Source: a virus
Virus record (IMG/VR): IMGVR_UViG_3300030330_006035
Span: 1 to 52,208 of that record
Strand: one strand, 5' to 3'
Length of the DNA stretch: 52,208 nucleotides
Part shown: positions 20,276 to 45,474 of the stretch, in pieces
Layout: every line of letters begins with the position of its first letter
Numbering within the stretch: position 1 is the first letter of the stretch
The notes under the pieces: model-generated
Told to the model about the DNA's origin: nothing
The model's input: the letters and a program-made list of their open reading frames with translations, nothing else
Database searches by the model: none
Program-made: the position numbers and the translations under genes

Positions 20276-20511
20276 TACTTCTTCTTCCTGGTTTTCTTCT
20301 TCCAAGAGATACGAGCAGGACCTGTCTTCCGTTTGGCAGCGGAGTTGCACTGAGCCTTAGTAGGACGACAAGCAGGATAAGGACGATTCTTATCCTTCTT
20401 GCCGCTCCTTCCGCAAGGCTTGCCGGTCTTGCAGTCGATCCAGCCTTTGCCTTTGTTCTGACTGAACCACTTGCGTAGACCACCGGACGTAGCGGACTTC
20501 TTCTTAGCCAC
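20275..20511 (-). CDS. Small basic Cys-containing protein (78 aa).
   Basis: ...GGLRKWFSQNKGKGWIDCKTGKPCGRSGKKDKNRPYPACRPTKAQC... GTG start overlapping the upstream stop. Confidence 0.6.
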   Translation of the reverse strand: MAKKKSATSGGLRKWFSQNKGKGWIDCKTGKPCGRSGKKDKNRPYPACRPTKAQCNSAAKRKTGPARISWKKKTRKKK

Positions 20512-28126: not shown

Positions 28127-28464
28127 GACACCTCGCGCTTACGCATGTTGGTGAGTCGCACCGCAGCGCCTGCAGTGGTAAAGGCACCTAGGCCTACTCG
28201 GCTTATATCGTCGGACTCGTCATAACTAGCGAATAGGAACGCATTCTTTCGCTGGACACATCGTTGGTTTCTCAGTTCCCACAACCACTTGCGGACAGAC
28301 TTGGCGCTGATGTCTGACCCTTCAACTTCCAACAGGTGTTCGTCGGGAGTTATTTGGATCAGGTGCAGCTTCTCCGGGTCAGGCTCAGACAACGGAGTCA
28401 TAGCCCCCTTCTTCTCAGAGAACTGGTCGATCAACGTCTTGACTTTGCTTTTCCAGTCGATCAT
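28123..28464 (-). CDS. Hypothetical protein (113 aa).
   Basis: ORF with 4-nt overlaps on both sides. Confidence 0.6.
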   Translation of the reverse strand: MIDWKSKVKTLIDQFSEKKGAMTPLSEPDPEKLHLIQITPDEHLLEVEGSDISAKSVRKWLWELRNQRCVQRKNAFLFASYDESDDISRVGLGAFTTAGAAVRLTNMRKREVS

Positions 28465-30248
28465 TGCTCCAAGAACCTCAATCCTGCTGAGATCTCATCT
28501 ATCAACATATCGGCTGTTCGCTGCTCTTCTACTTGCCGTCGGGCTGCTTCTTGGTTGGCTTGGAAGTTTTCATCTGCGATGATTGCAAGTTCGTTCTCAA
28601 GCTCTGCGACCAAAGGACTCAACTCAGGGTCCATCAGCTCTGCCAAATCCATTTGTTCTTCTTGAAGACCCTCCAACCGATCCAAAGCGCCAAGTCGGTT
28701 ACTAATCAAATCGCTCAAGGCTTGACCCATTCGAGGATCGAGTTTGGCAAAGATCTCTTCGAACTCTGGGTTGATGTTGCCTTGCTCATCAAAGGCAGTT
28801 TCGAGGGTACCCAAAAGAAGTTCTGACGCTGCATCTGCTCGCTCCTCTGCCGTAAAGAAGCGGGCGGTTGTGTCCGTGGTTTGCTTGCCCATGTCTTCCA
28901 AGAACGCCATCGCAGCTTGCGCTTTGAACTGCAGTTTTTGGTGTGCCTGCCGCACGTCTTCAGACTTTTCAGCTATCAGTCTTTGGGTTTCGGAGTTCGA
29001 GGCATCTTCTTCTGTCGCCAAGATATTCTCAAACTCTTGTCGGCTTTTGAGTGCAGTGGCGGACGTAGAGCTAGAAGCAACCATGATAGATTCTGCCGCT
29101 GCGTGAAGCTGCTCCAATGACACGCCATACTCCGCTTTCAAAGAAGCAAGCTCATCAATCATTTGCTGAGGGTCTCCCCCACTACCCTCTACGCCTCGGA
29201 ACAACTTCTGCAACCCCAAGAACAAACCTTCGGATGCTTTCTCTCCGCCTTTACCCAGTGCAGACAGCGATCGAGATGCGGTGATCAGGTTGGCTGCTTC
29301 GAGTCCTTCGTAGTCTGTCTTGTACTCAGCAAGAGCTTGCTGCACATTCTCTTTGACTTCTGCTTCTGATTGGTCACCTGCTTGCCCAACAAGACCTGTC
29401 ACTCCAGTGAGGGCAACAAGACCTGCCGCAAACAAACCAACAGGATTGGAAAGGAGAAAGAGACCTCCAACGCCCGCAGCGGTAGCCAAAAGACTTCCCC
29501 CAAGACCCATTGTTTCCCCTACAGGCTCCGCCGCGTCCACGACATCCTCGAAGAATCCCGGTGCATCACCGAAGAACCCTTGGCCGTCAACTGCTGGAGT
29601 TGGTCGAGCACTCTCCAAAGCAGCCTTTGCTGCTGCATAGGGGGTCATTCCCATTCCGATACGGTCTTGGTAGGTAGTGTCAAACGTCATACCCAGCCGG
29701 GTGTCTCCTACTCCTGCTCCTCCGATGCCGAAGGTGCCTCCTGCTCCCAGCTGAATAAAGCGGTTCTGGTTTCCCATCAAAGCTCTTGCGACAGCCTCCC
29801 TTGCATTCTTGTGCACTTTGTCGTTGGCCATCTCGTTAGCGTACGAACTAAGAGTTCTTTGGAATGTTTGGTCGAAACCTCGAATGCCTCCCTGTTCCTT
29901 AGCAATCTTGCCTGCGATTCCTCCGCTCTCTCGCTTGAGCCTACGCATCTCTTCTTTATTCTTTTCGATTGCTGCTCGGCGCCGCTCGAAGAACTCTGAT
30001 CCTGGCTTCATGAAGCTAAGGGCTTGTGCGTTTGGCATCCCAGACACAGCCGCACCTGCGGTCGGACCAAACTGAGACACAAAACCCTCTGACAAGATAG
30101 AGCTTGCGTCCATGCGGGCTTCGTTCATTCTTGTGTTGTGCAACTCTCCCTGCTGAGCAAGTGTTTCGCCTCGCCGCTGCTGGAGGCCTTGCATCAACTG
30201 GCTAACCATAGCCGCTTGGATCTGAGGATTTCCTTGGAACTGTGACAT
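28461..30248 (-). CDS. A/G/Q/E-rich virion-module protein (595 aa) with central hydrophobic helices.
   Basis: GGSLLATAAGVGGLFLLSNPVGLFAAGLVALTGVTGLVG is flanked by helical, low-complexity sequence. This resembles ejection- or tape-measure-like proteins in composition only. Confidence 0.65.
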   Translation of the reverse strand: MSQFQGNPQIQAAMVSQLMQGLQQRRGETLAQQGELHNTRMNEARMDASSILSEGFVSQFGPTAGAAVSGMPNAQALSFMKPGSEFFERRRAAIEKNKEEMRRLKRESGGIAGKIAKEQGGIRGFDQTFQRTLSSYANEMANDKVHKNAREAVARALMGNQNRFIQLGAGGTFGIGGAGVGDTRLGMTFDTTYQDRIGMGMTPYAAAKAALESARPTPAVDGQGFFGDAPGFFEDVVDAAEPVGETMGLGGSLLATAAGVGGLFLLSNPVGLFAAGLVALTGVTGLVGQAGDQSEAEVKENVQQALAEYKTDYEGLEAANLITASRSLSALGKGGEKASEGLFLGLQKLFRGVEGSGGDPQQMIDELASLKAEYGVSLEQLHAAAESIMVASSSTSATALKSRQEFENILATEEDASNSETQRLIAEKSEDVRQAHQKLQFKAQAAMAFLEDMGKQTTDTTARFFTAEERADAASELLLGTLETAFDEQGNINPEFEEIFAKLDPRMGQALSDLISNRLGALDRLEGLQEEQMDLAELMDPELSPLVAELENELAIIADENFQANQEAARRQVEEQRTADMLIDEISAGLRFLEQ

Positions 30249-30251
30249 GGA

Positions 30252-31409
30252 TTAGTAGCCTACTGTTGCGGGGAAGTTTACTGGTCCTCCCGATTGCGAT
30301 CCGGGAGGGTACATGTATGTGTTGTACCCAGCTCCGTGGATGGTCTGTGCAACGCTAAACAACTCACCGAGAAGTCCAAGCACCCCAACTTCAGTCGGAG
30401 GCAAAGCTGAGATGATGTTCACCATTGCATTCGAGCCGGTAGCAGCTGCGTTTGCGAGAGCAGTTGATGCCTGCATTCGCAGTGCGTCGTTGGCTTGTTG
30501 CATCCCGGTGTATACCTGCACTGCTTGGTTCATGGCTTGGCTCTGTTCAGCCACCATTCCTGCACCTTGCATGGTCACCTGAGAAAACAAGCCTGTCATG
30601 TTTTGGATCGCGGACGACTCCAACTGTGCTTGGGCTTGGAAGGTGCCTGAGATTGCTGTGTCGTACTGTGCAGCACTTGCAGCGATAGAGGCTGCGGCTG
30701 ATTGTCCTCGAGTAGAGTCTGCTTGGATCTGGGCTCCCACGATCTGTGCAGGAGATGCGCCAGCAGCCGCCATTTGAGAAGCCATCTGAACTGACTGTTC
30801 GCCCGCTGCTCGACCTGCGTTGATCGCTTGAGCCGCCATGCTCTGGTGGCGAGCAGCCTTCAAACCTTCTCGGGCTTCGTCCATGTTGCCGCTGATAGCA
30901 GCAAGTGCATCTTTCTGGCCTTGTTGGATTGCGTCTTGTGCTTGTCCGGTGGAGGACTTGATAAAGTCCATGCCTTCTTGCAAGAACCCAAGACCTTCCT
31001 CTTTGGCAGCGGCTACGTCGGTAAGTCCTTGTCCCGTAGCAAGATCTGAAAGTGCGCCCATGGAAGTATCAAAGGCGCCACCGAACTGATCAAGCAAGCC
31101 TTCTCGGTAGTCGTTGATCTGGTCTGCAACGGACTGTCGGTTGCCCAGCTCCTGCTGGAAAATGTCGGGGAGGTTGATTCCCATCATCTGGCCCATGTTG
31201 CCTTCAAAGTATTGAAGGTCGCCCAGATCGCTGTAAAGCTGCCCGGTCAAATCGCTTCGGATACCCTGCCGTGAGCCTCGTCCTTGGTTTACTGCAAGGT
31301 CCCCTGTAATAGGGAACGCTGCTGTGGAGTTAGTTCGCCCGGCAAATGCAGGACTGAAACCCAAGTTAGGTCCCGAACCAGGCATAAAGAATGGGTTGAA
31401 GGTGCTCAT
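30252..31409 (-). CDS. Q/A/M/G-rich virion-module protein (385 aa).
   Basis: Long ORF with low-complexity helical composition. Confidence 0.65.
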   Translation of the reverse strand: MSTFNPFFMPGSGPNLGFSPAFAGRTNSTAAFPITGDLAVNQGRGSRQGIRSDLTGQLYSDLGDLQYFEGNMGQMMGINLPDIFQQELGNRQSVADQINDYREGLLDQFGGAFDTSMGALSDLATGQGLTDVAAAKEEGLGFLQEGMDFIKSSTGQAQDAIQQGQKDALAAISGNMDEAREGLKAARHQSMAAQAINAGRAAGEQSVQMASQMAAAGASPAQIVGAQIQADSTRGQSAAASIAASAAQYDTAISGTFQAQAQLESSAIQNMTGLFSQVTMQGAGMVAEQSQAMNQAVQVYTGMQQANDALRMQASTALANAAATGSNAMVNIISALPPTEVGVLGLLGELFSVAQTIHGAGYNTYMYPPGSQSGGPVNFPATVGY

Positions 31410-34400
31410 GACTGGGTATATGCCTGACTGGTCTTGGTGTCCATGATCTGTCCGTTACACACCATACTCTGAAGCCGGTAATCCACGTCAGGACAGAAGA
31501 TGCGGATTCCGGGCGTCAGGGTAAAGCCTAGCGGTCCTTGTACACCGCTGAAGGTAGAGTCGGATCCAAAGACTGCTGGGTATAACGAGGAGCCTTCAGT
31601 TAGAGACGCGACGTTTGTGCCGTCTGGTTTGACGGGTACGTTCTTGCTGCTTGCCGCTTCGTCGTTATTGTTGTAAAGGATGCCTTGGAACTTACAAGCA
31701 GTGTCTGATGCGTTGTTTCCTGACACATCCAGTACGTGGATTCGAGTCTCGTCGACCTGTTTGAGATAGTGGTGGTCATCAATCTCAGAGGCCCCTCTTG
31801 CTGTGCGGGTGGGAATGCCTACCTGGTGCGCAGTGCACTCCACAAACACAGGACTGATGCCGATCTTAGCGCTGGCGCTGCAGTCTAGTGAGGTCATCAA
31901 CGTAATAGTTATTGCGCTGGCGCTCTTAGTAACGCTTTTGATCTGCGCTTTGTTGCCGATCTTGGACTGATCTGTGTCCTCCAAGACGTAGACGTACGCC
32001 CCGACACAGCTGTCAGATGCTGCCTGGCTGTTGCCGTTGCCTGTAGTGCACACCAAGCTGGTGCTGCCCTGACCGCTAGACAACGTAAACAATGTGGGGC
32101 CGATGATGTCCATCAGTGTGCGCCGGTTGTAGGACTGCTGCGCAAACACAGCAGTGTCTCCACCAGTCAGTGCCTTGCGGTCACGCACGTGGTTGGCTAC
32201 GTAGATACGCGGGCGCCAGTATCCCGCTACCGCCTCGTCTCGGGTGTTGACGTTGTTGGCCACATCCGGGTGGTTCATCAGCCATAGCGAACGGTGCACC
32301 CTATCTCCCCCGAACGTGGGGGAGTAACCCGTGCCGCTTGCTGTAGTTGAAAAGGTCTCTGCGTTGGGGAAGTTCGCATGCTTGACGTCGGTGAACGGAA
32401 GATCCACCAGCTCAGTCATGCTGGATGTCTCAAACCACGTACATGCTGCGTGCCCCAAAGTGGGGTTGTAGAAGAACAAAGACGAGATGAAAGGGTCGAA
32501 CGCAACCTTTAGATTGTCGTGGTTGTCCTTCCATTTTTCTCGAATCAAGACGTCGATTACAGACATGTTGTCGAGTGACCCATTCGTGCCCACAATCTTG
32601 ACGCCTCTAGGTGCAATCGAAAACAGCTGAGATGCAGCAACTGTGCAGGCGTCGGGGTTGACCACCCCCACCATACCTTCGTGCAGTTCCCGCACCATCA
32701 CATCTTGCTCTCGACGGATGTGGTAGAGGCGGTCCTCGCTCAGTCCCAGCATGTTGGGGCCTGTACGCACTAGCGCCAAGATACGGTTGGAAGGATCGCT
32801 AGGTGTGTACTGGTTCTGAGGGGGGAACAGTTCTGCTGCGTACTTCTCGACTTGAGAGTACTTGGTTTCTCCCCCACCGCGATAAGGATCTGCTGCGGTG
32901 AACTCATCCTCTGTTCCCTGGTTCAGCGTGGTGATCGCAGGAGGTGTGATGTTTGCAGTCACCAAGATGTTATCCAAGAACTTGGCGGTTCCTGCTTGTG
33001 GCATGTTGTCATCGAAGCGCAGTGGTCCGGTGTAAAGCGGACGGTACAGCAACTCGTCTTCGTTCAGTGTGTAGAAGAATATAACCCGCTGGCGGGTAGA
33101 GGCTACTGCGCCTCCGGTGGTGGTCGGCAGCACGTCGATGCCGTAGTTGGTCAAGGTGTTGTCAAGAGTCTTGTAGTCGTCAAGTTTGATCAGTTTGTCC
33201 AAGAACAGAGTGTTCGGGGCAAAGTTGATAGCCTCGTCTTCTGTGCGGGGTGAGCGATAGAAGAAGGCGTAGTCGTACTTGCGCACGTCATAGCAGAGCT
33301 CAACACAGGTGTACTCACGAATACCTTTCGGTACAACCTGAGGGCTACTGATAAGCGCAATCAGATCCTCGTTCTCTTCGTCATACTCACGGCCTGATAC
33401 ACCGCAGCGACCGGTGGTGCCGTACTTGAAAGCCGACTTGTCGATGCGTGCAATCTGGGACATGCCAGATGTACGTCCAGTCTTGGAGTCAAAGAGCTGG
33501 TATGCGAAGGCGTAGTTGCCCCGGTCAAACCTGTGCGACTTGAAGATGTCGTCGGTAGTAAACTCAAAGGTCTGGCTAACCTTCTGGAAGTCCACGCCGT
33601 TGATTGTGGCTTTAGCAACGATCCCCCACTGAAAGTTACGTCCCGAAGGCAGTATGCCTTGGTCGTACAAAGAGGTAATCTCAAACTTATTGCTGGGAAT
33701 ATCGCTGGCTACCTTGATCAGTCGACCTATAGCCTCCGGGTCGTTCCAGTACACGTCAAAGGTTACGTTACCCGAGAATGTGCCTGCCTCGGCAATCTCC
33801 CAGACCAAGTCAGAGTTGACTGAGGCTTGGAGTGCACGGTCAACAGGAGATCGGGAAACAATCAAAGACTTTAGGAAGTCAAGAGCTTGTTGGTCAGTGA
33901 CTCCGGATTGACTGGTAGAGGACTGGGCTGACCAGTTACCAGGAGACGTTGTGTTTGCTGCTATCTCAAAGCCTAGGGTGTGCCAGTGGCTCTGCAGCTG
34001 CAGGTCGTCAGGAGAGGTACCGTCGACTTCATTGGCAGCAATAGAAGGGAAAGTGAACTGGGTGTCAAAGCTCAGGTCACTAATCAGGTCGCCGCCGGTA
34101 GCGGTACTAGAGTTGAGAGTCTGGGCAATGCATAGTGCTTCATCTGCAAAAGACTTGGAGTTGAGGGTGTTGTTCGCTCGACGAAGAGTTGCTACTCGAT
34201 TGGAGGTAGGGCTACCGCTAGAGTGGATAGCAGGGAAGGTAAGTGCGTCTGACTCCCCTGTTCCGTCTGGAGGATCTGAGGTGTCGTAGTCTTGGTCGAC
34301 CACATTCGCAGCAAAAAAGTTCTTGAAGTAGTCCCCTTCGTTAGTACCAAACAAGCTGGTGCCAGCCGATTGATCGTTGCGTCGACGGACACGCCCAAAG

Positions 34401-36229
34401 GTAGTGCTGATCACTGCGCTAGAGGATCGCTTGACGGTGGACGCCCCCGGCACAAAAGCCTGAGTGGAAAGGTATCCGTTCTTCAGCGCGGGGTTGTTTG
34501 TTGTCCCTGCCGCTGTATTAGGGAACTGAACAGATCCATCCCTTACCCCAACAAGCCCCATGCGCCTGACGGTAGATCCGCTAACCAGCGTCGGGTAGCT
34601 GTAGTTGTGCTGCCCAGGAGTGTTAGTCAGGTTATCCAAACCTACTTCTTGCAGGTGTGTGGTCGATCCAGAAGCAAGCACTGTCTCAGGCTTCCACTTG
34701 AGGCTTTCGGCTGGAATGCAGTACTCGTCATCGTTGACGTTAGTGACTAGGTAGATGTTTACACTGAGGTCCGAAACGGCCAAGGTGGTGGTGTCTGTTG
34801 GAGAGGTTCCGGTCAGTGGGCGTACGCGCACGTACATGTTGGCTGCGATTGCCGTGCCGGTACCTCCAGCGTCTGAGGTCTTCAGGTCGTTGAAAGGACG
34901 ACACTCAAAGACTTGGGTGTACGTCACTTGCTCTGAGAAGTTGGCTCCGGTGTTGTACACGTCGTAGACAGACATGCCATTGCTGATAGCGTCTTTTGAG
35001 CCTACGCAACCGCCCGCAGGCTGGAAGGTGTTGACAACGCTAGGAGACCCGCCGGTGCCATCAACGAAGTCGACGATACAACCGGGGTGTCTCTGGTTAG
35101 CTCCCTTGCGCAAAGAGTCTGTACTGTTAGGGGTGACGTCATTTGCGGTGTTGGTGGCTCGGTAGTTTACGACTACGATTACCCGTTGTCCGGTAGTCAA
35201 CGCTGTTCCGCTGGTACCAAAGTTTGTAGCTGCTGAGGTGTAGGTGCTTACGGTGGATGCAAGACTTCCAGGCAGCAAAGTGTTTTCTTTGTGCGTCACA
35301 ACAGGGGCAGACACAAAGTCATCAAGGCGAATACCGGGCTGGTCAAAGTCACCGAAAAGTTCAGGTAGGTCTTCTGCTGACTTGTTGCTTTGGAGTAGCT
35401 GTGCAGATCCTGGTCGTCGATCGTTTGTGTCTGGGGTTGGTAATGTGCCAATCTCTGTGGCTTGGTCAATGTCCAAGAAGTCTGGTCGGAACCCAGGCCC
35501 GGGCACTCCAGTGTTGCCTGTCGCAGAACTATCTCCGGTAACTCCAATGACTTGACTGCCGTTGAACGCTGCGTTCTCCGGGTCAACGTCGTTAGCTCCG
35601 CCGTCCAAGAAGAACACTGAAGGCGAGCGTCCACGCACAAAGACGTAGACCAGCCGCCCCAGAGTTTCCACGCTCATGGGCTCTGTGGAGGAGCAGCCCA
35701 GCATAAGAAGCTGTCCAGTGTAGTTCAGCCCTGACCCCGAAGCGCCTGGGTCAGCAGGGTCGTTGGGGGTGTACCACTTAGGAGCTGCTGCGCCTGTGTC
35801 GAAAAACTCAATGAACACATCGGCGTTCACTTTGTCGTCGGCTACGTCTTTTCGTTTGACGCGGTACACATAGCCATAGCAAGTGGAGCTGGTGCCACGC
35901 ATAAACGTGACAGGGTAGAAGTCAATAACCTCAGAGCCTTCGCCGTGAGCTGCCCCGGTATCATCTGTCTGACGTCCACCGGCAGCAAGGTAGGGGGTGA
36001 GTCGAGTGTCGTTGGCTGCTCCGTCGCCGTTGTCGTCAGGAGCGTAGTTATCAAACTCAAGTTCACGGACCTGACGGAAACCAGCAAAGGGACGGCTACC
36101 TCCAGAGATAGTACCGTCAAGACCGTTGGCTTCGCTAAGCAGGCCTCGAGCGACTGAGGTTCGTGGTACAGACTTATCGCCTGTAGGACGGCTCAGGTCG
36201 ATCTTCCACTCAGCGTCCTTCTGTGCCAC
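31406..36229 (-). CDS. Giant virion protein (1607 aa), a candidate tail hub, fibre or spike.
   Basis: Uninterrupted 4.8-kb ORF immediately downstream of the fibre-like genes. T/S/G/N/D-rich composition that looks beta-rich. Confidence 0.7.
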   Translation of the reverse strand: MAQKDAEWKIDLSRPTGDKSVPRTSVARGLLSEANGLDGTISGGSRPFAGFRQVRELEFDNYAPDDNGDGAANDTRLTPYLAAGGRQTDDTGAAHGEGSEVIDFYPVTFMRGTSSTCYGYVYRVKRKDVADDKVNADVFIEFFDTGAAAPKWYTPNDPADPGASGSGLNYTGQLLMLGCSSTEPMSVETLGRLVYVFVRGRSPSVFFLDGGANDVDPENAAFNGSQVIGVTGDSSATGNTGVPGPGFRPDFLDIDQATEIGTLPTPDTNDRRPGSAQLLQSNKSAEDLPELFGDFDQPGIRLDDFVSAPVVTHKENTLLPGSLASTVSTYTSAATNFGTSGTALTTGQRVIVVVNYRATNTANDVTPNSTDSLRKGANQRHPGCIVDFVDGTGGSPSVVNTFQPAGGCVGSKDAISNGMSVYDVYNTGANFSEQVTYTQVFECRPFNDLKTSDAGGTGTAIAANMYVRVRPLTGTSPTDTTTLAVSDLSVNIYLVTNVNDDEYCIPAESLKWKPETVLASGSTTHLQEVGLDNLTNTPGQHNYSYPTLVSGSTVRRMGLVGVRDGSVQFPNTAAGTTNNPALKNGYLSTQAFVPGASTVKRSSSAVISTTFGRVRRRNDQSAGTSLFGTNEGDYFKNFFAANVVDQDYDTSDPPDGTGESDALTFPAIHSSGSPTSNRVATLRRANNTLNSKSFADEALCIAQTLNSSTATGGDLISDLSFDTQFTFPSIAANEVDGTSPDDLQLQSHWHTLGFEIAANTTSPGNWSAQSSTSQSGVTDQQALDFLKSLIVSRSPVDRALQASVNSDLVWEIAEAGTFSGNVTFDVYWNDPEAIGRLIKVASDIPSNKFEITSLYDQGILPSGRNFQWGIVAKATINGVDFQKVSQTFEFTTDDIFKSHRFDRGNYAFAYQLFDSKTGRTSGMSQIARIDKSAFKYGTTGRCGVSGREYDEENEDLIALISSPQVVPKGIREYTCVELCYDVRKYDYAFFYRSPRTEDEAINFAPNTLFLDKLIKLDDYKTLDNTLTNYGIDVLPTTTGGAVASTRQRVIFFYTLNEDELLYRPLYTGPLRFDDNMPQAGTAKFLDNILVTANITPPAITTLNQGTEDEFTAADPYRGGGETKYSQVEKYAAELFPPQNQYTPSDPSNRILALVRTGPNMLGLSEDRLYHIRREQDVMVRELHEGMVGVVNPDACTVAASQLFSIAPRGVKIVGTNGSLDNMSVIDVLIREKWKDNHDNLKVAFDPFISSLFFYNPTLGHAACTWFETSSMTELVDLPFTDVKHANFPNAETFSTTASGTGYSPTFGGDRVHRSLWLMNHPDVANNVNTRDEAVAGYWRPRIYVANHVRDRKALTGGDTAVFAQQSYNRRTLMDIIGPTLFTLSSGQGSTSLVCTTGNGNSQAASDSCVGAYVYVLEDTDQSKIGNKAQIKSVTKSASAITITLMTSLDCSASAKIGISPVFVECTAHQVGIPTRTARGASEIDDHHYLKQVDETRIHVLDVSGNNASDTACKFQGILYNNNDEAASSKNVPVKPDGTNVASLTEGSSLYPAVFGSDSTFSGVQGPLGFTLTPGIRIFCPDVDYRLQSMVCNGQIMDTKTSQAYTQS

Positions 36230-36230
36230 T

Positions 36231-36563
36231 TCAACTCCATCGGTATGGGAACTTGCGGTTTAGCCAGCTCTGCCGCTCTTTGCAACCGCACCCCTTCTTC
36301 TGCTTGATGCGTCCAAAGGAGACAACTTCGATAAACCATTTGACCGTGTCGCCTAGGCCACGGTGCTCTTTAAATACGTCGTACCACTTCATAGGTCGTA
36401 CCTCTACTGCTTGCTGAGGAGCCGCCTTGTTTTCCAAATACCACTGAGGGCAAAGAAGGCGACATGTTTGAGGGGTCGGACTTCCTTCCCAATACCCCAA
36501 GGAGCATACGGGTTTGTCGTCTACGTAGGAGTGTTTTGAACAGTTTACTACTGGTAGTTCCAT
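36231..36563 (-). CDS. Small Cys-rich protein (110 aa).
   Basis: Internal ATG at 36563, 2 nt after the upstream stop. 8 Cys, including ...KKGCGCKERQSWLN. Confidence 0.55.
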   Translation of the reverse strand: MELPVVNCSKHSYVDDKPVCSLGYWEGSPTPQTCRLLCPQWYLENKAAPQQAVEVRPMKWYDVFKEHRGLGDTVKWFIEVVSFGRIKQKKGCGCKERQSWLNRKFPYRWS

Positions 36564-36565
36564 GG

Positions 36566-38557
36566 TTATTGCACCGTTAGTGTAGAAGGAAAAGACAGGT
36601 CTAGAGAGACTCCAAAGTTTGAGCCGAAGCCCGTGGTCGGAGTTGAGTCTGTACAAAGAACGTATGATCCGTCAGGACAGGTGTTGTCTTCTTGCCCTCC
36701 TGCTGCCGCATTGTGACGGTAAAGCGCTGTGACCCCGTCACCCCCTCCGGTGCTGGAGCATGACTGAGGGACTCCCCCTCCAGCAAAGCAAATCGAGAAC
36801 TTAACAACTATTCCCCAGTTATTACCGGTTGCAGTTGCAGGGCATGAGTCGTCAAACGCGGGAGAACAAAGAATCCTTGCTGAGTCGATGATTAGCTTTA
36901 CTGTCACAGGAGGAGTACCTGTACCCAAGACCGCTACTTCGCCACCTTCGGCAATCGTCACTGCTTGTCCGGTTGCGTCGGTGCACGGACCGCTAGGCCT
37001 ACACCCTGCACAAGGAAAGTTAGGCTGGCCCGGAGGCTGCGCAGGGGCTTGACAACAAGCATCGTAGACTGTTGCTTTGCACTCAGAGGTTGATGGGTCA
37101 ATGACCGCCCCCACCTGAACAGCATCTTCGCTAATGGACACACTCCCGCCGTCGAGTACTGAACCACTAGTGTCGGTCGCAGTCAAAGCAACATCCACAA
37201 TGTTGTAAACACCCTGACAAGCGTTTGGAGGGCAGCTGTCTGCACCTGCACCCGGAGGCTGGCACTGCACACAAGCACACGCGCATTTAGGCGTCTCACA
37301 AAGACAAGCCTCGCAAGTATCAAAGGGACCGACGTTGGGGATTCCGCCCTCGCAGTTTTGCTCACAGTTTATAGTGTTCGCTGCGTGGTCTCCGTTTTGG
37401 AAGAACGCATGAGTAAACACTCCATTGGGGTAACCAGGGGTACAAGTTCCTGTACCAGACGGGCTAAGCATTGCACCGCAGCCCCCGACTCTTGCGTTAG
37501 CGGGATCCACAATAGTTCCGTTGCCTGAAAGCACCTGCTGGCATTGACTCTGCTTGCAGTTTACGTTGCTGGTTCCTCCGCCAAACCCAACTACCTTTCC
37601 TCTAAAGTCTTGGTCTGTTGGGCCGGGAGTAGCTGTGCCTAGGTTGGCGCAGTCGCACCATGCAAATCCTGCTGCTTTTTCAGAGGATATGAACTGAGCA
37701 AAGTCTTCCAAGCCTGAGCTGCAGATAGTTCCGTCCTTTAGGTTGAAACACCCTTGACAGTCTTTCGTGTTTAGCCACACCGCCTGACAGCAGTTAGCGC
37801 ACAAGTTCTCCATCGTCTGGTTACTATCGGTAGAGAAGTTTAGTTTGCCTACGCTTATCGCCAAACCGCCTGTGTTGTAGATCATTTTATCGCCCGCGCA
37901 GTCTTCGTTGAAAGAGGAGCGGTCTATCTTCTTGCATGCGGGTATAACTGTTCCGCCGCTGTCAGTAGTTTCTTTTATCTGTGCTTCGGATCGAAGGTCA
38001 GGACTGCCTACAAAACAGTGGCCTCCAATCTTAAATGCAAGCGGCCACTCTGTCCCCCCTGCACCAGCAGGAAGCCACCCTAACTGAGCCATAGTGGGGC
38101 CTCCGCTACCAATCTCCATTTGCTTGAAGTCTTCAAGGCGCATGTAGACAGACTTGCACATTCGCTTTTGGGTTTGTACTGCTCCGTCAACTATGTGCGT
38201 TCCGCCTATCTGCTGTTCGGTTGCCCCAGCACAGTTGTTTTCGTACGCCTCAGCAGGGGACTGCTTGTCGTTGCCGCTAAGGCCTGAGCAATCTCCAATA
38301 CCTACTTGGCAACAGACATCACCAAAACCATCTGCGTTTTTACATAACGACTCGTGGTACGCCCTGTCGCCCACACTACAAGGGTTGCCTGTGAAGTTGA
38401 CGTACTTGTCTGCAATGTGCGTACCGCAAGAGGTAAACTCAACATACGTCCCTGCTGCACAGCAGCACTCTCTCATTAGCTTTCCAACCTGATTTGAGTT
38501 GGTTGTAGTGCTGTGTTTGATCAGCGCTTTGTCGCTGGGGCGGAACTGCAGGGTCAT
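36566..38557 (-). CDS. Extremely cysteine-rich virion/fibre-module protein (663 aa).
   Basis: About 49 Cys by my count (about 7%), including ECCC, CANCC, WCDC and TCEACLCETPKCACACVQC. It sits directly downstream of the collagen-like protein (4-nt overlap). Confidence 0.7.
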   Translation of the reverse strand: MTLQFRPSDKALIKHSTTTNSNQVGKLMRECCCAAGTYVEFTSCGTHIADKYVNFTGNPCSVGDRAYHESLCKNADGFGDVCCQVGIGDCSGLSGNDKQSPAEAYENNCAGATEQQIGGTHIVDGAVQTQKRMCKSVYMRLEDFKQMEIGSGGPTMAQLGWLPAGAGGTEWPLAFKIGGHCFVGSPDLRSEAQIKETTDSGGTVIPACKKIDRSSFNEDCAGDKMIYNTGGLAISVGKLNFSTDSNQTMENLCANCCQAVWLNTKDCQGCFNLKDGTICSSGLEDFAQFISSEKAAGFAWCDCANLGTATPGPTDQDFRGKVVGFGGGTSNVNCKQSQCQQVLSGNGTIVDPANARVGGCGAMLSPSGTGTCTPGYPNGVFTHAFFQNGDHAANTINCEQNCEGGIPNVGPFDTCEACLCETPKCACACVQCQPPGAGADSCPPNACQGVYNIVDVALTATDTSGSVLDGGSVSISEDAVQVGAVIDPSTSECKATVYDACCQAPAQPPGQPNFPCAGCRPSGPCTDATGQAVTIAEGGEVAVLGTGTPPVTVKLIIDSARILCSPAFDDSCPATATGNNWGIVVKFSICFAGGGVPQSCSSTGGGDGVTALYRHNAAAGGQEDNTCPDGSYVLCTDSTPTTGFGSNFGVSLDLSFPSTLTVQ

Positions 38558-39129
38558 GAATCACATTCTTTAGCGCACGTAATCTCTCTCGCGGTGCCCC
38601 CGTACGTGGTGCCTGTGCTGTCAGTACCGACAGCCCCTCCGAGACCGGACCCCTCAAAAAAGCCATAGACGCGAGTAAACTGTTTCTTCAGGCACTGGTC
38701 GCTTGTGTCGTAGGTAACATCAGAAACAAAGTCGATGTACCCATTTACACCAGGAGTAGACCCATTAGATCCTGGGGGACCTTGAGGTCCAGGAGCGCCA
38801 GTAGGCCCCGCTGGTCCGGGAGGTCCTTGTATCCCTTGTATCCCTTGCTCTCCTGTTGCGCCAGGCTCACCATCGTCGCCTCGCTGACCCCCTCCGCCAC
38901 CGCCGCCCCCGCTCTTAGGACGACCAAAACCTCCCGGTCCTCCGGTGCCTCCTGCCCCGAATGGGGGCAGACCCGGTCCTGACATAAGGAAGGCTTCTCC
39001 GTCACGGACGTGAGTAATGCGCAGGGGCTCTGCGTTCAAAAGGCCAAGTGCTGCAACAAGTGCTCGAGCTACCTGAGCATCTGACTCTTCACGCGTTCGA
39101 GTATTGGAGGGTCTTGCGCCGAATGCCAT
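38554..39129 (-). CDS. Collagen-like repeat protein (191 aa), a probable tail-fibre component.
   Basis: G-X-Y run GDDGEPGATGEQGIQGIQGPPGPAGPTGAPGPQGPPGSNG preceded by a Gly-rich tract. Confidence 0.7.
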   Translation of the reverse strand: MAFGARPSNTRTREESDAQVARALVAALGLLNAEPLRITHVRDGEAFLMSGPGLPPFGAGGTGGPGGFGRPKSGGGGGGGGQRGDDGEPGATGEQGIQGIQGPPGPAGPTGAPGPQGPPGSNGSTPGVNGYIDFVSDVTYDTSDQCLKKQFTRVYGFFEGSGLGGAVGTDSTGTTYGGTAREITCAKECDS

Positions 39130-40073
39130 TAGTAAAGTTCCTGCCCGAGGTTGTAGGTGCTTCGATCTTGATTGTCCACAGTATGCTTCTCGAATTTCTT
39201 GGGCTTGCGCATCTGCATATAGGACAAGTTGTCGCCGATAGTCTTCAGCGCCTTGCGATACTCGATCTGCAAGAACTGCATCTTCTTGGCACTAACATCT
39301 TTCATCACAGCCAAGTTGATAGCGGAGGCTGCAGCCACACACTGCATTAGAGATTGGAACCCCTGAGGCACAATTTCGTAGTGGATATCTGTTTTAGATC
39401 CGTACGCCGAAGTATCAAACGCCACCCGCACAGTAACCTGATCGTCCCCGGCATCAGTTGCAGCCAAGGTATGGGAGTCGATTACTCGCTCCTCGACTAC
39501 GGTTGCATTGCCTGCAGTGTTCTTCAACAGACGCAAGGTCGCTCCTACGTAGGCGTTAGGTCGGCGGTCAATCGCACCCAAAGTTACCTGCGAAGGCAAG
39601 CAGAGGGTTAGGGTCTTGCGGTCTGCAGAGAGCTGCCCCTGCCCTTGGTTGTAGTGGGGGAGAAAGTCACCGTTCGGGATGTAGAACAGAGTGAGGGTGT
39701 CGTCGACGTCGGGCTTGGGGCGACACGACAAAAGGTTGCCCTCGAGTGACCAGTTAGGTCCGTGCGGGTGCATCTGGTTGAAGGGGACAAACTCCTTACT
39801 GACCACGTTGTTGGTATCCAACTTCACAAGGCGGAATACCTCCCCCACGTTTGGAGGCAGTTGGTAGTACTCGGTTCCGGTGACAAACGTGATGTTATGG
39901 CGGATAACAATAGGGTTGTCAAAGTTCAGCGACAGGCGGGAGAGGACGTTGACCATCTCCGGCATGATGACGTTCCGGACCAGAAAGTCGTTGCTGTACT
40001 TGGAGGAGGGCTCGTCGAGGTAGCCTCGGACGCGTTCGATCACAGAAAACAAGAAGGAGCCGGTACTATGCAT
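39129..40073 (-). CDS. Hypothetical structural protein (314 aa), possibly a head-tail adaptor or tail protein by position.
   Basis: ORF between the capsid-proximal genes and the fibre genes. Confidence 0.55.
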   Translation of the reverse strand: MHSTGSFLFSVIERVRGYLDEPSSKYSNDFLVRNVIMPEMVNVLSRLSLNFDNPIVIRHNITFVTGTEYYQLPPNVGEVFRLVKLDTNNVVSKEFVPFNQMHPHGPNWSLEGNLLSCRPKPDVDDTLTLFYIPNGDFLPHYNQGQGQLSADRKTLTLCLPSQVTLGAIDRRPNAYVGATLRLLKNTAGNATVVEERVIDSHTLAATDAGDDQVTVRVAFDTSAYGSKTDIHYEIVPQGFQSLMQCVAAASAINLAVMKDVSAKKMQFLQIEYRKALKTIGDNLSYMQMRKPKKFEKHTVDNQDRSTYNLGQELY

Positions 40074-40608
40074 AGTAAGTCTTTCCGGACGTCATGTCCT
40101 TCAGGGAGTCTTTGGTGCGCTCCAGCGTCTCTCCGCCCTCACGCTCTCCGGTAAACCTGCTGATGGCAAGGTTCCTAGCGGACTCTTCCTTGCCTTTGCT
40201 GCGAGCCCACTTCACGGCGTCATGCTTCTCTTCGTTGGATTCACGGGCTGCTTCTATACGTTCGTACCTTGAGTCCTCAGCCTGTTGCCGCCGCCGCATC
40301 ATCTTCTCGTCGTGAGGCATTACGGTCAGTTGCAGGACCCGTTCGCCCAACCAGCCCCCTCTGTCGGGAGGGCCTTGGAGCACAGTCAGTTCGACTGCGA
40401 TGCGCAGACGTTTGACCCGCCAAGCAGCGAGCACAAAAGTGTTGTGTTCTGCGTGTCGGTACACGAAGAGTTCTGGAATGCCAGTCACCCGGCGGGCCCA
40501 ACGAATCCACTCTCCGTCTTCCATAACGCGGTGGTTTTCGTCCATGTGTAAGTCGTCTTGGAACATATGTAGATAGTAGTAAAAACCCCCCTCATCCGTA
40601 AAGGACAA
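40066..40608 (-). CDS. Hypothetical protein (180 aa; TTG start or a later ATG).
   Basis: ORF downstream of the capsid candidate. Confidence 0.5.
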   Translation of the reverse strand: MSFTDEGGFYYYLHMFQDDLHMDENHRVMEDGEWIRWARRVTGIPELFVYRHAEHNTFVLAAWRVKRLRIAVELTVLQGPPDRGGWLGERVLQLTVMPHDEKMMRRRQQAEDSRYERIEAARESNEEKHDAVKWARSKGKEESARNLAISRFTGEREGGETLERTKDSLKDMTSGKTYYA

Positions 40609-42282: not shown

Positions 42283-43203
42283 TTACAGCTTTGTGTTTCC
42301 TCCCGTTGAGATGTCAGCTGCAATGTCAAGCAGTGTGTCTTCCGCAAACGTCTTCGCTTTGTCGTAGACGCTGGCAGTAGTGTCCTTGCCTGGCTTGAAC
42401 TGGGGGATCTCAATGGGTTTCTTCTTAAAGAACATATCTTGTCCAGAAGCTGTTTCCGGTGCCCGACCAAGTTTGTCTGGGTCTCCGATTACCGTCCGGT
42501 ATCTATCAGCGACCACCTTGGCCGCGTTTTCTGATGCAGTCTTGAATGTAGAGTCGTCGATGCTTCCTCCGGCAGATTTAACGCGCCGAAGGCTGCTGAG
42601 GATTTCTTTTTGAACATCCTCTTTGATGACTTCCATTCGTTTGTCGTGACCTTCATCTCCGTGGATTCGCTTGAATGCGTTTCCGATGGAGGCCAGTGAT
42701 TCGTTATTTGCAGCCTCAGAGACTGCGTTCCCCAACTTGCCTTGAAGCGCTTCGAGGCGAAGCTGTCTCTCTCGACTCTCCACTTCCGCCAGCCGTTGGT
42801 TCATTTCGTCTACACGAGGATCTTGTTGGGGTTCGGGTTGGAGTTGCGGGTTAGGGTCCATTTGCTGTTGTCCTTTCAATCCAGAGACGTACTCTTCAAT
42901 CTGCTCTGGCTGATAGCCTTCGTATGCCATCACATAACGAAGGTCGGACTCACGCTCAGGACTCAGAGTCTCTTCTTGGTTACGCATCAGCTTGGATGCT
43001 GCTGCTTGATATTCGCGGAGGTTTTCTGCCTCTCGCATTTGAGCAGCGACTTGCTCTGCAGTAAATGTTTGTCCGTCAATCGTAAACTTCTGGTCTACAT
43101 TGACTTCTGCCGGTGCTTCGGTAGAGGCCTCAGGCGCTGCTGTGGTCTCCGTGGTTGCTTCCGGGGTTTCCTGCGTACTTTCTTGGACTTGCTCTTCGCT
43201 CAT
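42283..43203 (-). CDS. Scaffolding-like protein (306 aa).
   Basis: Acidic T/E/A/P-rich N-terminus and helical, charged Q/E/R-rich body. Located between the portal and the capsid candidate. Confidence 0.55.
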   Translation of the reverse strand: MSEEQVQESTQETPEATTETTAAPEASTEAPAEVNVDQKFTIDGQTFTAEQVAAQMREAENLREYQAAASKLMRNQEETLSPERESDLRYVMAYEGYQPEQIEEYVSGLKGQQQMDPNPQLQPEPQQDPRVDEMNQRLAEVESRERQLRLEALQGKLGNAVSEAANNESLASIGNAFKRIHGDEGHDKRMEVIKEDVQKEILSSLRRVKSAGGSIDDSTFKTASENAAKVVADRYRTVIGDPDKLGRAPETASGQDMFFKKKPIEIPQFKPGKDTTASVYDKAKTFAEDTLLDIAADISTGGNTKL

Positions 43204-45254: not shown

Positions 45255-45474
45255 AGCCCTCTGGTACGTACTGACGCACAGTTCTTACATCAGGTATGTT
45301 CATATCTTCTGAGACCCTTATCGAGGCGGGACTCTGTAACGGAGTTTTTTCCTGTTGTCCTACGACACCTCCGCCCTTGACGGTGTAGTAGACCTCCATG
45401 ACTCGCTCAAAAAAAGCGATGGGGACTACGACGTGGCTGGGGTGGACTTGTAGCTCAGATTTTGCTTCTTCCAT
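45208..45474 (-). CDS. Hypothetical protein (88 aa).
   Basis: ORF overlapping the TerL 3' end by 20 nt and the portal 5' end. Confidence 0.5.
   Translation of the reverse strand: MEEAKSELQVHPSHVVVPIAFFERVMEVYYTVKGGGVVGQQEKTPLQSPASIRVSEDMNIPDVRTVRQYVPEGYVPRGAAARTDEDDA

What the first reader, a model, noticed from the sequence alone, without database searches (positions are those of the whole stretch)
36231..39129. Fibre module combining a collagen-like protein with a 663-aa protein of about 7% cysteine and a small Cys-rich partner
The 191-aa G-X-Y repeat protein is followed, with a 4-nt overlap, by a 663-aa ORF with about 49 Cys by my count, in dense clusters (ECCC, CANCC, WCDC, TCEACLCETPKCACACVQCQPPG, CAGCRPSGPC). 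After that comes a 110-aa ORF with 8 Cys (..GCGCKERQSWLN). Such cysteine density is very unusual for phage virion proteins. It implies extensive disulfide bonding or metal binding in an extracellular receptor-binding structure. I cannot place it in any family by eye.
Basis: seen in the sequence. Interest (0 to 1): 0.65.

Follow-up and report, generated by a model that had tools for sequence, protein, structure and literature searches.

The report
Cysteine-stapled phage tail-fibre cassette
An uncultured marine phage carries a swappable three-gene host-recognition module (a collagen-like stalk ending in a cysteine, a 663-residue head with 49 mostly conserved cysteines, and a small six-cysteine helper), which probably forms a fibre held together by disulfide bonds and belongs to no described protein family.

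Summary
The 663-aa ORF (36566-38557, minus strand) has 49 Cys (7.4%). The small ORF has 6 Cys, not 8.

The Cys are not a compositional accident. 37 are invariant and 6 nearly invariant in homologues of about 50% identity. Cys are gained and lost in even numbers, and 14 of 15 family members keep an odd total.

The family is confined to marine metagenome phages. It has no Pfam, PHROG, PDB or GenBank-phage match.

The small Cys6 protein is the best marker of the system. In all 15 IMG/VR loci where it is full length, the ORF just upstream has 4.2-8.5% Cys (background median 0.8%). This holds in podovirus-like and siphovirus-like phages alike.

The protein before the hyper-Cys gene always ends in a Cys, and the hyper-Cys protein usually starts with a CCC motif.

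In phages with 71-86% identical capsid and adaptor proteins, the cassette is 25% identical or unrecognisable. Conservation falls from the N to the C terminus, and some members carry a ConA-like lectin domain.

Best reading: a disulfide-stapled receptor-binding fibre, covalently tethered to its stalk, with a dedicated helper. It is a new variant of a known kind. The chemistry is inferred, not shown.

The parts
39129..40073 (-). 314-aa head-to-tail adaptor-like protein. This is context: the gene just before the cassette.
   Evidence: Weak Pfam SU10_adaptor match (E 0.009, below the curated cut-off). It is 71-86% identical in L015/L016/L027, where the cassette itself is almost unrecognisable.
38554..39129 (-). 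191-aa collagen-like stalk or anchor protein. It has a conserved N-terminal ~55 aa, poly-Gly plus 17 G-X-Y triplets (residues 75-125), and a C-terminal domain ending ...ITCAKECDS (Cys 146, 185, 189).
   Evidence: PHROG tail-fibre families match the collagen part (best E 1.3e-5). The penultimate-region Cys is the only invariant column across six divergent anchor tails. There is a 4-nt ATGA overlap with the next gene.
36566..38557 (-). 663-aa hyper-cysteine protein (49 Cys, pI 4.55). No N-terminal hydrophobic signal segment is visible in the sequence. Proposed distal receptor-binding subunit.
38459..38467 (-). Invariant CCC motif (residues 31-33), followed by YVEF. It is shared with hyper-Cys proteins of other phage lineages.
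37217..37315 (-). Metallothionein-like CxC cluster, residues 415-447 (CEACLCETPKCACACVQC...C...C). The six Cys at 415-429 are removed together by the deletion in P0007.
36569..37210 (-). Variable beta-rich C-terminal region (residues 450-663), ending ...TLTVQ. This is the only part with a moderately confident AF2 model. Proposed receptor-binding end.
   Evidence: Column identity 0.18-0.39 here versus 0.7-0.8 at the N terminus. dN 0.21 and dN/dS 0.40. pLDDT 60-79.
36231..36563 (-). 110-aa basic (pI 9.2) Cys6 partner protein. The N-module is C8-x11-C20-x13-C34-x3-C38-P. The C-module is GLGDTVKWFIEVVSFGRIKQKKGCGCKERQSWLNRKFPY (residues 69-107).
   Evidence: It is 97% identical in L071, where the 663-aa protein is 85% identical.
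31406..36229 (-). 1607-aa downstream virion-module protein (context). Its GTG start lies 1 nt after the stop of the small gene.
   Evidence: Syntenic in L001-L006 and L015-L016, and in part in L011 and L027. No family match.

Best explanation
Window 36231-39129 encodes a three-part tail-fibre (host-recognition) cassette of an uncultured marine phage.

1. **Stalk.** The 191-aa protein is a trimeric collagen-like stalk. Its conserved N-terminus attaches it to the tail/adaptor region. Its C-terminal domain ends in a free Cys.
2. **Head.** The 663-aa protein is the distal, receptor-binding subunit. It is made in the cytoplasm (no N-terminal signal-like segment is visible). In the mature virion in oxic seawater, about 21-23 intramolecular disulfides staple its fold. 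Its odd, unpaired Cys (one, or the three of the invariant N-terminal CCC) form intermolecular disulfides with the C-terminal Cys of the stalk chains. This would tether head to stalk covalently, as the fibres of cyanophage Pam3 are tethered to Cys-rich loops of the baseplate.
3. **Helper.** The 110-aa Cys6 protein is an obligate, co-inherited maturation factor for the head. It may be a Zn- or redox-active mini-protein that keeps the many thiols in register or relays disulfides.

Shown here: the genes are real and conserved; the Cys positions are conserved; Cys are gained and lost in even numbers; the three genes co-occur in unrelated phages; the cassette is hypervariable and recombines.

Inferred: presence in the virion, receptor binding, disulfide rather than metal chemistry, covalent tethering, and what the helper does.
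For: **Real, conserved genes**
- There are 11 homologues in the first search and 15 distinct full-length members in all. All come from marine metagenomes and share the same gene order.
- dN/dS is 0.35 for the head gene and 0.09 for the small gene.

**The Cys skeleton is conserved**
- 37 Cys are invariant and 6 nearly invariant out of 49.
- Cys counts across members are 49/45/47/39, so 14 of 15 are odd.
- Differences between clades are even (+6/-2, +2, -6). Two Cys columns arise together in exactly the same four sequences.

**Co-inheritance with the small protein**
- All 15 IMG/VR loci with a full-length Cys6 protein have a 4.2-8.5% Cys ORF immediately upstream. Only 0.3% of background ORFs reach 4%.
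- This includes siphovirus-like contigs with HK97-type capsid, tail-tube and tape-measure genes. There the pair follows the distal-tail genes.
- The 690-aa, 73-Cys protein of L007 aligns with the window protein over its full length (E 9e-31).

**Host-range behaviour**
- In L015/L016/L027 the capsid protein is 71-73% identical and the adaptor 71-86%. The head is <=25% identical or undetectable, the stalk (where detected, in L015/L016) about 29%, and the small protein 36-50%.
- Column identity falls from 0.79 to 0.18 along the protein.
- dS of the head's N-terminal part and of the small gene is 0.13, against 0.7-1.2 in the flanking genes. This points to recent exchange of the cassette.
- Laminin_G_3 (ConA-like lectin) domains are inserted in L009 and L020, above Pfam's threshold.

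**Tethering**
- In every such locus with an upstream gene, the protein before the head gene ends with a Cys in its last 1-6 residues. These tails come in about seven sequence types (CAKECDS, VAECS, AVCTQ, CTAACPP, VECDET, SVSCT, DGSC). The background rate is 8%.
- Most heads start with CCC-x3-6-[YF][VI]E[FL].

**Precedent**
- Pam3 fibres are disulfide-linked to Cys-rich baseplate regions and are released by DTT (PMC9942802).
Against: - There is no experimental evidence. The phage is uncultured, so expression, virion incorporation and disulfides are all unverified.
- AF2 gave a poor model (mean pLDDT 37.8; 55 for the small protein), and Foldseek found nothing. Cys-Cys geometry therefore could not be checked.
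- The parity argument rests on only about 4-5 independent evolutionary events. One member (P0010) has an even count.
- The CxC-rich segment 415-447 and five invariant His are equally compatible with metal-thiolate sites.
- Pfam recognised no thiol oxidase or thioredoxin-like enzyme in the window.
- The helper has no thioredoxin, Erv or Dsb signature. Its C-module also occurs in proteins outside tail modules, for example next to the terminase gene in Nonlabens phage P12024S. Its activity may therefore be generic.
Confidence: 0.6

Rival explanations
1. The cysteines mainly bind metal. The head would be a Zn- (or Fe-S / Cu-) thiolate-stabilised fibre protein. The small Cys6 protein would be its metallochaperone, or itself a Zn2Cys6- or Fe-S-type protein. 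Disulfides would be minor or absent.
For: - The protein is made in the reducing cytoplasm, with no signal-like N-terminus visible in the sequence.
- Segment 415-447 resembles a metallothionein (CxCxC...CxCxC) and is lost as a unit in P0007.
- Five His are invariant, several of them next to Cys (SCGTH, GGHC).
- The small protein has C-x3-C-P and CGC motifs. C-module-only relatives carry an extra distal CxxC, which suggests Cys4 sites.
- From general knowledge, not tested here: metal ions in fibres have precedent, such as the His-coordinated Fe in the T4 gp37 tip.
Against: - The contigs come from marine metagenomes (Tara Oceans among them). If those waters are oxic, as assumed here, exposed thiolates would be expected to oxidise.
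- Cys change in steps of two and the total stays odd. That is the classic disulfide signature, not sets of 3-4 ligands.
- Known fibre metal sites use His rather than Cys.
- No Pfam metallothionein or zinc-finger model matches.
Confidence: 0.25
2. The 110-aa protein is not an assembly factor. It would be a structural part of the fibre (a junction or tip subunit), or a general small regulatory or DNA-binding protein that merely sits in this operon.
For: - It is very basic (pI 9.2; C-module 10.1) beside an acidic head (pI 4.55), so a stable complex is plausible.
- Its C-module (phrog_32048, function unknown) is widespread in other contexts, for example beside the terminase or a metallophosphatase.
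- From general knowledge: some genes downstream of fibre genes encode adhesins carried on the virion, such as the gp38 of T2-type phages.
Against: - It is far more conserved than the head (97% versus 85%, and about 90% versus 50%; dN/dS 0.09). That is the opposite of what an exposed tip adhesin would show.
- The N-module-plus-C-module architecture is found only next to hyper-Cys genes, in 15 of 15 loci. A random operon passenger is therefore unlikely.
Confidence: 0.25
3. The 663-aa protein is a virion component but does not bind the receptor. It could be a capsid decoration or whisker fibre, or a tail nozzle or plug element.
For: In the window it lies directly after the capsid and adaptor genes. 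No tail gene here has a recognisable family, so its position alone is ambiguous.
Against: - In siphovirus-like contigs the homologous pair lies after the tape measure and two distal-tail genes, not near head genes.
- The cassette is the most variable part of the module, and conservation falls from N to C terminus.
- Relatives carry lectin-domain insertions.
Confidence: 0.1
4. The finding is a compositional or frame artefact. The ORF would not be a real gene, or its Cys richness would be accidental.
For: Off-frame ORFs with 8-9% Cys do occur in this window, antisense to real genes.
Against: There are full-length homologues with conserved synteny, indels in multiples of three, 37 invariant Cys and dN/dS of 0.35.
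Confidence: 0.01

Closest known systems
Disulfide-tethered tail fibres of freshwater cyanophage Pam3 (gp24 fibre trimer linked to gp22/gp23 wedge; PMC9942802)
   Same: In Pam3, three equivalent Cys of a trimeric fibre element are disulfide-bonded to a 'cysteine-rich region' of the partner protein, and DTT releases the fibres. Here a presumably trimeric collagen-like stalk ends in a conserved Cys, and its partner has an invariant CCC and an odd Cys count.
   Different: - No sequence similarity was detected. The window proteins match nothing in GenBank phages or PDB.
- Pam3 uses a handful of Cys, whereas here one protein carries 45-49, or up to 73-80 in relatives.
- No small Cys6 partner is mentioned in the passages of the Pam3 paper that I read.
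- Disulfides here are inferred, not observed.
Collagen-like phage tail-fibre proteins (Pfam PF01391 Collagen; PHROG tail-fibre families such as phrog_819 and phrog_366)
   Same: The 191-aa protein has 17 G-X-Y triplets and matches tail-fibre PHROGs over that region. Its counterpart in L011 has a Pfam Collagen hit on record.
   Different: The matches are confined to the low-complexity collagen part. The window protein does not reach Pfam Collagen at E <= 0.1. The N-terminal anchor and the Cys-ended C-terminal domain have no known family.
Tail-fibre assembly chaperones encoded just downstream of fibre genes (lambda Tfa / Caudo_TAP, Mu U, T4 gp38 and gp57A)
   Same: The small gene lies immediately downstream of, and tightly coupled to, the fibre gene. 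It is inherited with the fibre across phage types.
   Different: There is no homology. It has six invariant Cys and a very basic, widely distributed C-module. It is more conserved than its client, whereas the client-specific parts of Tfa-type chaperones co-vary with the fibre tip (general knowledge).
Cytoplasmic disulfide pathway of poxviruses and other NCLDVs (E10R Erv-type oxidase, A2.5L with CxxxC, G4L glutaredoxin); CGC shuttle of yeast Erv2p
   Same: The concept is the same: a virus makes disulfide-rich virion proteins in a reducing cytoplasm and supplies small Cys-motif relay proteins. The window's small protein has CxxxC (C34-C38) and CGC (C92-C94) motifs. The comparison with A2.5L and Erv2p rests on my own recall, not on a test.
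   Different: Pfam finds no Erv/ALR, thioredoxin or glutaredoxin domain anywhere in the window. No FAD-binding protein was found. The resemblance is limited to the motifs.
phrog_32048 (PHROGs family of unknown function)
   Same: Relatives of the small protein that carry the same GLGDTVKK...C-x(1,2)-C..RQ..LN module match it, with E from 1e-10 to 3e-5.
   Different: The window protein itself gave no PHROG hit at E <= 0.1. In phrog_32048-type proteins the module is N-terminal, they lack the 4-Cys N-module, and they are not tied to hyper-Cys neighbours.

Membership tests
Collagen-like phage tail fibre (PF01391 Collagen) | Uninterrupted G-X-Y repeats long enough to form a triple helix | tested here: met
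   17 consecutive triplets at residues 75-125. Repeats are present in all lineage homologues.
Collagen-like phage tail fibre (PF01391 Collagen) | Significant match to the Pfam Collagen HMM | tested here: not met
   No Pfam family at E <= 0.1 for the window protein. Only PHROG tail-fibre hits over the repeat. The L011 counterpart does have PF01391 on record.
Phage receptor-binding / tail-fibre protein (functional class) | Located in the tail module and hypervariable relative to flanking structural genes; conserved N-terminus with variable C-terminus | tested here: met
Phage receptor-binding / tail-fibre protein (functional class) | Present in the virion and binds a host receptor | not testable with these tools
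   The phage is uncultured and no proteome or host is known. Genome-collection scans found no prophage copy.
Tail-fibre assembly chaperone (Caudo_TAP/Tfa, T4 gp38/gp57A) | Sequence homology to a known chaperone family | tested here: not met
   No Pfam, PHROG or PDB hit.
Tail-fibre assembly chaperone (Caudo_TAP/Tfa, T4 gp38/gp57A) | Encoded immediately downstream of the client fibre gene and co-inherited with it | tested here: met
   2-nt intergenic gap. 15 of 15 loci pair it with a hyper-Cys ORF.
Thiol-disulfide oxidoreductases (thioredoxin fold / Dsb / Erv-ALR) | Thioredoxin-fold CxxC or FAD-linked Erv domain | tested here: not met
   No Pfam match. The motifs are CxxxC and CxC, not CxxC. The AF2 model is low-confidence and mostly helical, with no Foldseek hit.
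Metallothionein / metal-thiolate cluster proteins | Dense CxC/CxxC clusters that bind metal; match to a metallothionein family | tested here: inconclusive
   A CxC cluster lies at 415-432, but there is no Pfam match. Metal content cannot be tested here.
Disulfide-rich extracellular protein (general class) | Cys conserved; gained and lost in pairs | tested here: met
   37 invariant plus 6 nearly invariant Cys. Counts of 49/47/45/39. One co-arising Cys pair. One exception, P0010.
Pam3-type disulfide-tethered fibre | Intermolecular disulfides between the fibre element and a Cys-rich partner, released by reduction | not testable with these tools
   Only sequence correlates are available: a conserved C-terminal Cys on the stalk, the CCC motif and the odd Cys count on the head.
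phrog_32048 | HMM match | tested here: inconclusive
   The window protein gave no hit at E <= 0.1. Relatives sharing the C-module gave hits with E from 1e-10 to 3e-5.

The most novel reading that the evidence does not exclude
The 110-aa Cys6 protein is a phage-encoded catalyst or template for oxidative folding. It would be a minimal thiol-disulfide relay (CxxxC plus CGC, perhaps with a metal centre). It would allow a protein with about 23 disulfides to be folded, and covalently coupled through its CCC motif to the three C-terminal Cys of a trimeric stalk, inside or on exit from a bacterial cytoplasm. That would make the cassette the first dedicated disulfide-assembly system for a bacteriophage virion, analogous in logic to the poxvirus E10R-A2.5L-G4L pathway. 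It would also make phage infectivity in the sea directly dependent on redox conditions.
Probability: 0.15. Interest if true: 0.85.

Novelty: new variant of a known kind. Interest (0 to 1): 0.62.

Why it matters
- **Host recognition in marine phages.** Receptor-binding proteins of uncultured marine phages are almost entirely unannotated. This cassette can be recognised from its conserved small-protein marker, the Cys-ended stalk and the CCC-started head. It moves between podovirus-like and siphovirus-like phages, so it offers a handle for finding host-range determinants in viromes.
- **Ecology.** If the fibre is disulfide-stapled and disulfide-tethered, the infectivity and decay of these phages should respond to reductants, oxygen-minimum conditions and photochemical redox chemistry. 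That is a testable ecological link.
- **Oxidative folding in bacteria.** The obligate Cys6 partner raises the question of how a protein with more than 40 structural Cys is matured in a bacterial cytoplasm.
- **Engineering.** A compact, hyper-cross-linked binding scaffold could also be useful for protein engineering.

Tried and rejected
**Searches that found nothing**
- Pfam and PHROGs on the 663-aa and 110-aa proteins gave nothing beyond noise (ALOG, E 0.086).
- tblastn of the head, the capsid protein, the L007 head and a small-protein relative against 50,697 GenBank phages gave no match.
- phmmer against 1.84 billion representative proteins gave 6 hits. Five are the same narrow family or fragments of it. 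One (P0015) is a spurious match to a repeat protein.
- A profile search that included the siphovirus-type heads did not widen the family, because of the candidate cap.
- PDB sequence searches with A1, A3, the adaptor and the 1607-aa protein gave nothing.
- Scans of 185,579 species genomes for either protein found no prophage copy and so no host clue.
- Literature searches found no description of this family. Only the Pam3 precedent turned up.

**Structure prediction**
- AF2 on the head with 11 sequences gave mean pLDDT 37.8, with only residues ~450-663 moderately confident. AF2 on the small protein gave pLDDT 55.
- Foldseek against PDB and BFVD gave no match at E < 1e-3.
- The diverse siphovirus-type homologues could not be added to the AF2 alignment because of tool restrictions.

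**Ideas considered and rejected**
- I looked for a phage-encoded thioredoxin, glutaredoxin, Dsb or Erv enzyme in the window. Pfam found none.
- The small protein is not simply a member of a tail-specific family. Its C-module also occurs beside terminase and metallophosphatase genes.
- The collagen repeat is not part of the mobile core. It is absent from the siphovirus-type loci.
- The small gene is not missing from the closest relatives L071/L072. It is intact there and the gene caller missed it.


Full report
**1. Checking the observation**

All genes concerned lie on the minus strand.
- The 191-aa ORF (38554-39129) has a poly-Gly run and 17 consecutive G-X-Y triplets (residues 75-125). Its Cys are at 146, 185 and 189.
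- It overlaps by ATGA the 663-aa ORF (36566-38557), which has exactly 49 Cys (7.39%) and all the quoted motifs.
- Two nucleotides after that gene's stop comes a 110-aa ORF (36231-36563) containing GCGCKERQSWLN. It has six Cys (8, 20, 34, 38, 92, 94), not eight.
- A 1607-aa ORF follows, 1 nt after the small gene's stop.

Given about 1% Cys in other ORFs, 49 Cys in 663 aa has a chance probability of about 2e-27. In 306 other ORFs of >=150 aa from related viral contigs, the median is 0.81% Cys and only 0.3% reach 4%. Short off-frame ORFs with 8-9% Cys do exist in the window, so I checked that this ORF is a genuine gene (section 3).

**2. Genomic context**

The window is a phage.
- The plus strand carries a replication module with family-A DNA polymerase, PD-(D/E)XK nuclease, a UDG-family protein, an AAA_24 ATPase, an ERCC4 nuclease and a D5-like primase.
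- The minus strand carries a large terminase (45455-47518, phrog_38, E 1e-44). After it come a 684-aa protein (probable portal), a 306-aa protein, a 539-aa protein (probable major capsid protein) and a 180-aa protein.
- Next is a 314-aa protein with a weak SU10-adaptor match (E 0.009), then the cassette, then a run of large proteins with no family match.
- The nearest cultured phages are extremely distant. The polymerase is about 22% identical to Vibrio siphophages, and the capsid protein has no match.

**3. The 663-aa protein is real and its Cys skeleton is conserved**

- A search of 5.8 billion proteins returned 11 homologues (47-88% identical), all unnamed and from metagenomes.
- phmmer against 1.84 billion representatives found six hits. 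Five are the same narrow family or fragments of it and one (P0015) is spurious.
- The contigs carrying these homologues are marine (Tara Oceans and others). Their gene order is the same: capsid protein, 180-aa, adaptor, collagen-like, Cys-rich, 110-aa, ~1600-aa, and so on.
- In the alignment, 37 Cys are invariant and six more are missing only from P0007, which has a 26-residue deletion.
- Against the closest relative (L071), dN/dS is 0.35 for the Cys-rich gene and 0.09 for the small gene.

**4. Evidence on the chemistry**

Among 15 distinct full-length members the Cys counts are 49, 49, 49, 49, 45 (six members), 47, 47, 47, 39 and 48. Fourteen of the 15 are odd. Differences between clades are even.
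- The window's clade has six Cys that the other clades lack and lacks two that they have.
- The P0008-P0011 clade gains two Cys in exactly the same four sequences.
- The P0007 deletion removes exactly six.

Gain and loss in pairs with a constant odd remainder is what a disulfide network plus one (or three) unpaired Cys would produce. Only about five independent events underlie this, and one member (P0010) has an extra Cys.

The N-terminus shows no signal-like hydrophobic segment, so the protein is made in the cytoplasm. Oxidation must then happen either with help or after lysis in seawater. Metal binding is not excluded. Residues 415-447 look like a metallothionein and five His are invariant.

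**5. The small protein identifies a wider, mobile system**

The small protein has 16 homologues.
- Its alignment shows an N-module with four invariant Cys: C-x9-15-C-xxG[YF]YGGxPS-x3-C-x3-CP.
- A variable linker follows.
- The C-module is almost invariant: GLGDTVKWxIExVSFGxIKQKKGCGCxxRQxWLNxxFPY.

Its distant homologues sit in unrelated siphovirus-like contigs with HK97-type capsid, tail-tube, chaperone and tape-measure genes. There they lie directly downstream of another hyper-Cys protein:
- 690 aa with 73 Cys in L007;
- 926 aa with 57 Cys in L009.

The L007 protein aligns with the window protein end to end (27% identity, E 9e-31).

A scan of IMG/VR gave 57 loci. All 15 loci in which the small protein has both modules have an upstream ORF of 4.2-8.5% Cys. 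Proteins with the C-module alone (50-160 aa) are widespread, match phrog_32048 (function unknown), and occur in other contexts. One example lies beside the terminase gene of Nonlabens phage P12024S. Even so, 11 of 37 of them follow ORFs with >=3% Cys.

**6. A third conserved element**

The protein encoded just before the hyper-Cys gene ends with a Cys within its last 1-6 residues in every locus with a full-length partner and an upstream gene:
- window ...ITCAKECDS
- L013 ...CAQECDS
- L011 ...VAECS
- L015 ...AAVCTQ
- L027 ...CTAACPP
- L007 ...AVECDET
- L009, L019, L020 ...SVSCT
- L028 ...YDGSC
- L048 ...HDGSCS

L030, whose partner lacks the N-module, shows the same feature (...HDGTC).

Only 8% of other ORFs have a Cys in their last seven residues. 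That Cys is the only invariant column when six divergent tails are aligned.

Collagen repeats occur only in the podovirus-like lineage: the window, L011, L013, L015 and L027. The hyper-Cys proteins usually begin with CCC followed by [YF][VI]E[FL].

A trimeric stalk offering three C-terminal Cys to a CCC motif, or to one unpaired Cys on each of three head chains, fits the odd parity. It also mirrors cyanophage Pam3. There, three Cys28 of a trimeric fibre are disulfide-bonded to Cys-rich loops of the wedge, and DTT releases the fibres (PMC9942802).

**7. Evidence that this is the host-recognition module**

- In L015, L016 and L027 the capsid protein is 71-73% identical to the window's and the adaptor 71-86%. 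The hyper-Cys protein is 25% identical or undetectable. The collagen-like protein is 28-30% identical where it is detected (L015, L016), and the small protein is 36-50% identical.
- Within the narrow family, column identity falls from 0.79 at the N-terminus to 0.18-0.39 beyond residue 450.
- Between the window and L071, synonymous divergence is 0.13 for the first 220 codons of the head and for the small gene. It is 0.7-1.2 in the flanking genes. This indicates recent recombinational exchange of the cassette.
- Two siphovirus-type members contain a ConA-like lectin (Laminin_G_3) domain above Pfam's threshold.

**8. Structure and other family searches**

- AF2 gave poor models: mean pLDDT 37.8 for the head, with only the beta-rich residues ~450-663 reaching 60-79, and 55 for the small protein.
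- Foldseek against PDB and BFVD, and HMM searches of PDB sequences, found nothing.
- Pfam recognised no thiol-redox enzyme in the window.
- No prophage copy exists in 185,579 species genomes.

**9. Interpretation**

The best-supported model (confidence about 0.6) is a three-part fibre.
- A stalk or anchor protein, collagen-like in this lineage, ends in a free Cys.
- A hyper-Cys, disulfide-stapled distal head binds the receptor through its variable C-terminal part. Its N-terminal CCC or odd Cys tethers it covalently to the stalk.
- A small, highly conserved, basic Cys6 protein acts as a dedicated maturation factor.

The rivals are listed with their tests: metal-thiolate chemistry (about 0.25), the small protein as a structural or generic factor (about 0.25), and a virion role other than receptor binding (about 0.1).

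**10. Novelty**

The functional category (a tail fibre plus an accessory gene) is known, and disulfide tethering of fibres has one structural precedent. What is not described in the libraries and literature I searched is:
- the protein families themselves;
- the extreme and conserved Cys skeleton;
- the strict three-gene signature shared across podovirus-like and siphovirus-like marine phages;
- the Cys6 partner.

I rate it a new variant of a known kind, with interest 0.62. The most novel reading not excluded is a phage-encoded oxidative-folding helper, with probability about 0.15.

Noticed in passing
window 20927-24709, 25578-26045, 26045-28126, 28461-30248, 30252-31409, 40066-40608, 42283-43203 (all minus strand): Seven virion-module proteins contain no cysteine at all: 1260, 155, 693, 595, 385, 180 and 306 aa, 3,574 residues in total. 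Two of them are very basic (pI 10.4 and 11.2). This sharp contrast with the 49-Cys protein suggests selection against stray thiols in the particle, or that these are ejected proteins.
   Followed up: partly
window 5152-5742 and 5616-6392 (plus strand): A Prok-JAB (JAMM) domain ORF overlaps or adjoins a ThiF-family E1-like ORF inside the replication module. This may be a ubiquitin-like or sulfur-carrier activation pair. Its function here is unknown.
   Followed up: no
window 18966-20015 (minus strand); also 20003-20350: A 349-aa ORF has a hydrophobic, signal-like N-terminus, 14 Cys (4%) and a dockerin/EF-hand-like DLNEDGIVGFQD motif near its C-terminus. It is preceded by a very basic 115-aa DUF6321 protein with 6 Cys. 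This may be a secreted or lysis-related protein.
   Followed up: no
L021-L069 (IMG/VR loci); NC_018271.1 21280-21639 (L070 5980-6339): The ~40-aa C-module of the small protein (sKGLGDTVKK..GIKxC-x(1,2)-C..RQ..LN..FPY) is widespread in phage contigs (IMG/VR). It occurs as 50-aa stand-alone proteins and as the N-terminus of 120-160-aa proteins (phrog_32048, function unknown). In Nonlabens phage P12024S it is gp35, just upstream of the terminase.
   Followed up: partly
L007 9975-9989, L009 9987-10001, L015, L027, L030, L035, L067, L069 (ends of the upstream ORFs); window 36569-36583: Nearly all proteins encoded just upstream of a C-module gene end in a short beta-strand-like motif at the very C-terminus (...TITVS...LTVS...TASIS...VVIS...LTVQ). 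This may be a recognition element for the small protein.
   Followed up: no
L071 5583-5915; L072 about 2243-2575: In the two contigs of the closest relative, the 110-aa gene is intact (107/110 identical). The public gene calls missed or truncated it, calling 53 aa in one contig and nothing in the other.
   Followed up: yes
window 36231-38557 versus L071 3601-5915: Synonymous divergence drops to 0.13 in the 5' part of the head gene and in the small gene, against 0.7-1.2 in the flanking capsid, adaptor, stalk and 1607-aa genes. This is a mosaic pattern that indicates recent recombination.
   Followed up: partly
L011 8133-9993: In this more distant relative, the hyper-Cys region is split into three Cys-rich ORFs (106, 171 and 188 aa) lying between a Pfam-Collagen protein and the small gene. 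This could reflect frameshifts, assembly errors or a genuinely split gene.
   Followed up: no
window 36231-36656 (minus strand): The mechanical ORF list extends the small gene to a TTG start (141 aa), which overlaps the end of the 663-aa gene by 91 nt. Homologues all start at the ATG (MELPVVNC...), so the 110-aa form is the real one.
   Followed up: yes
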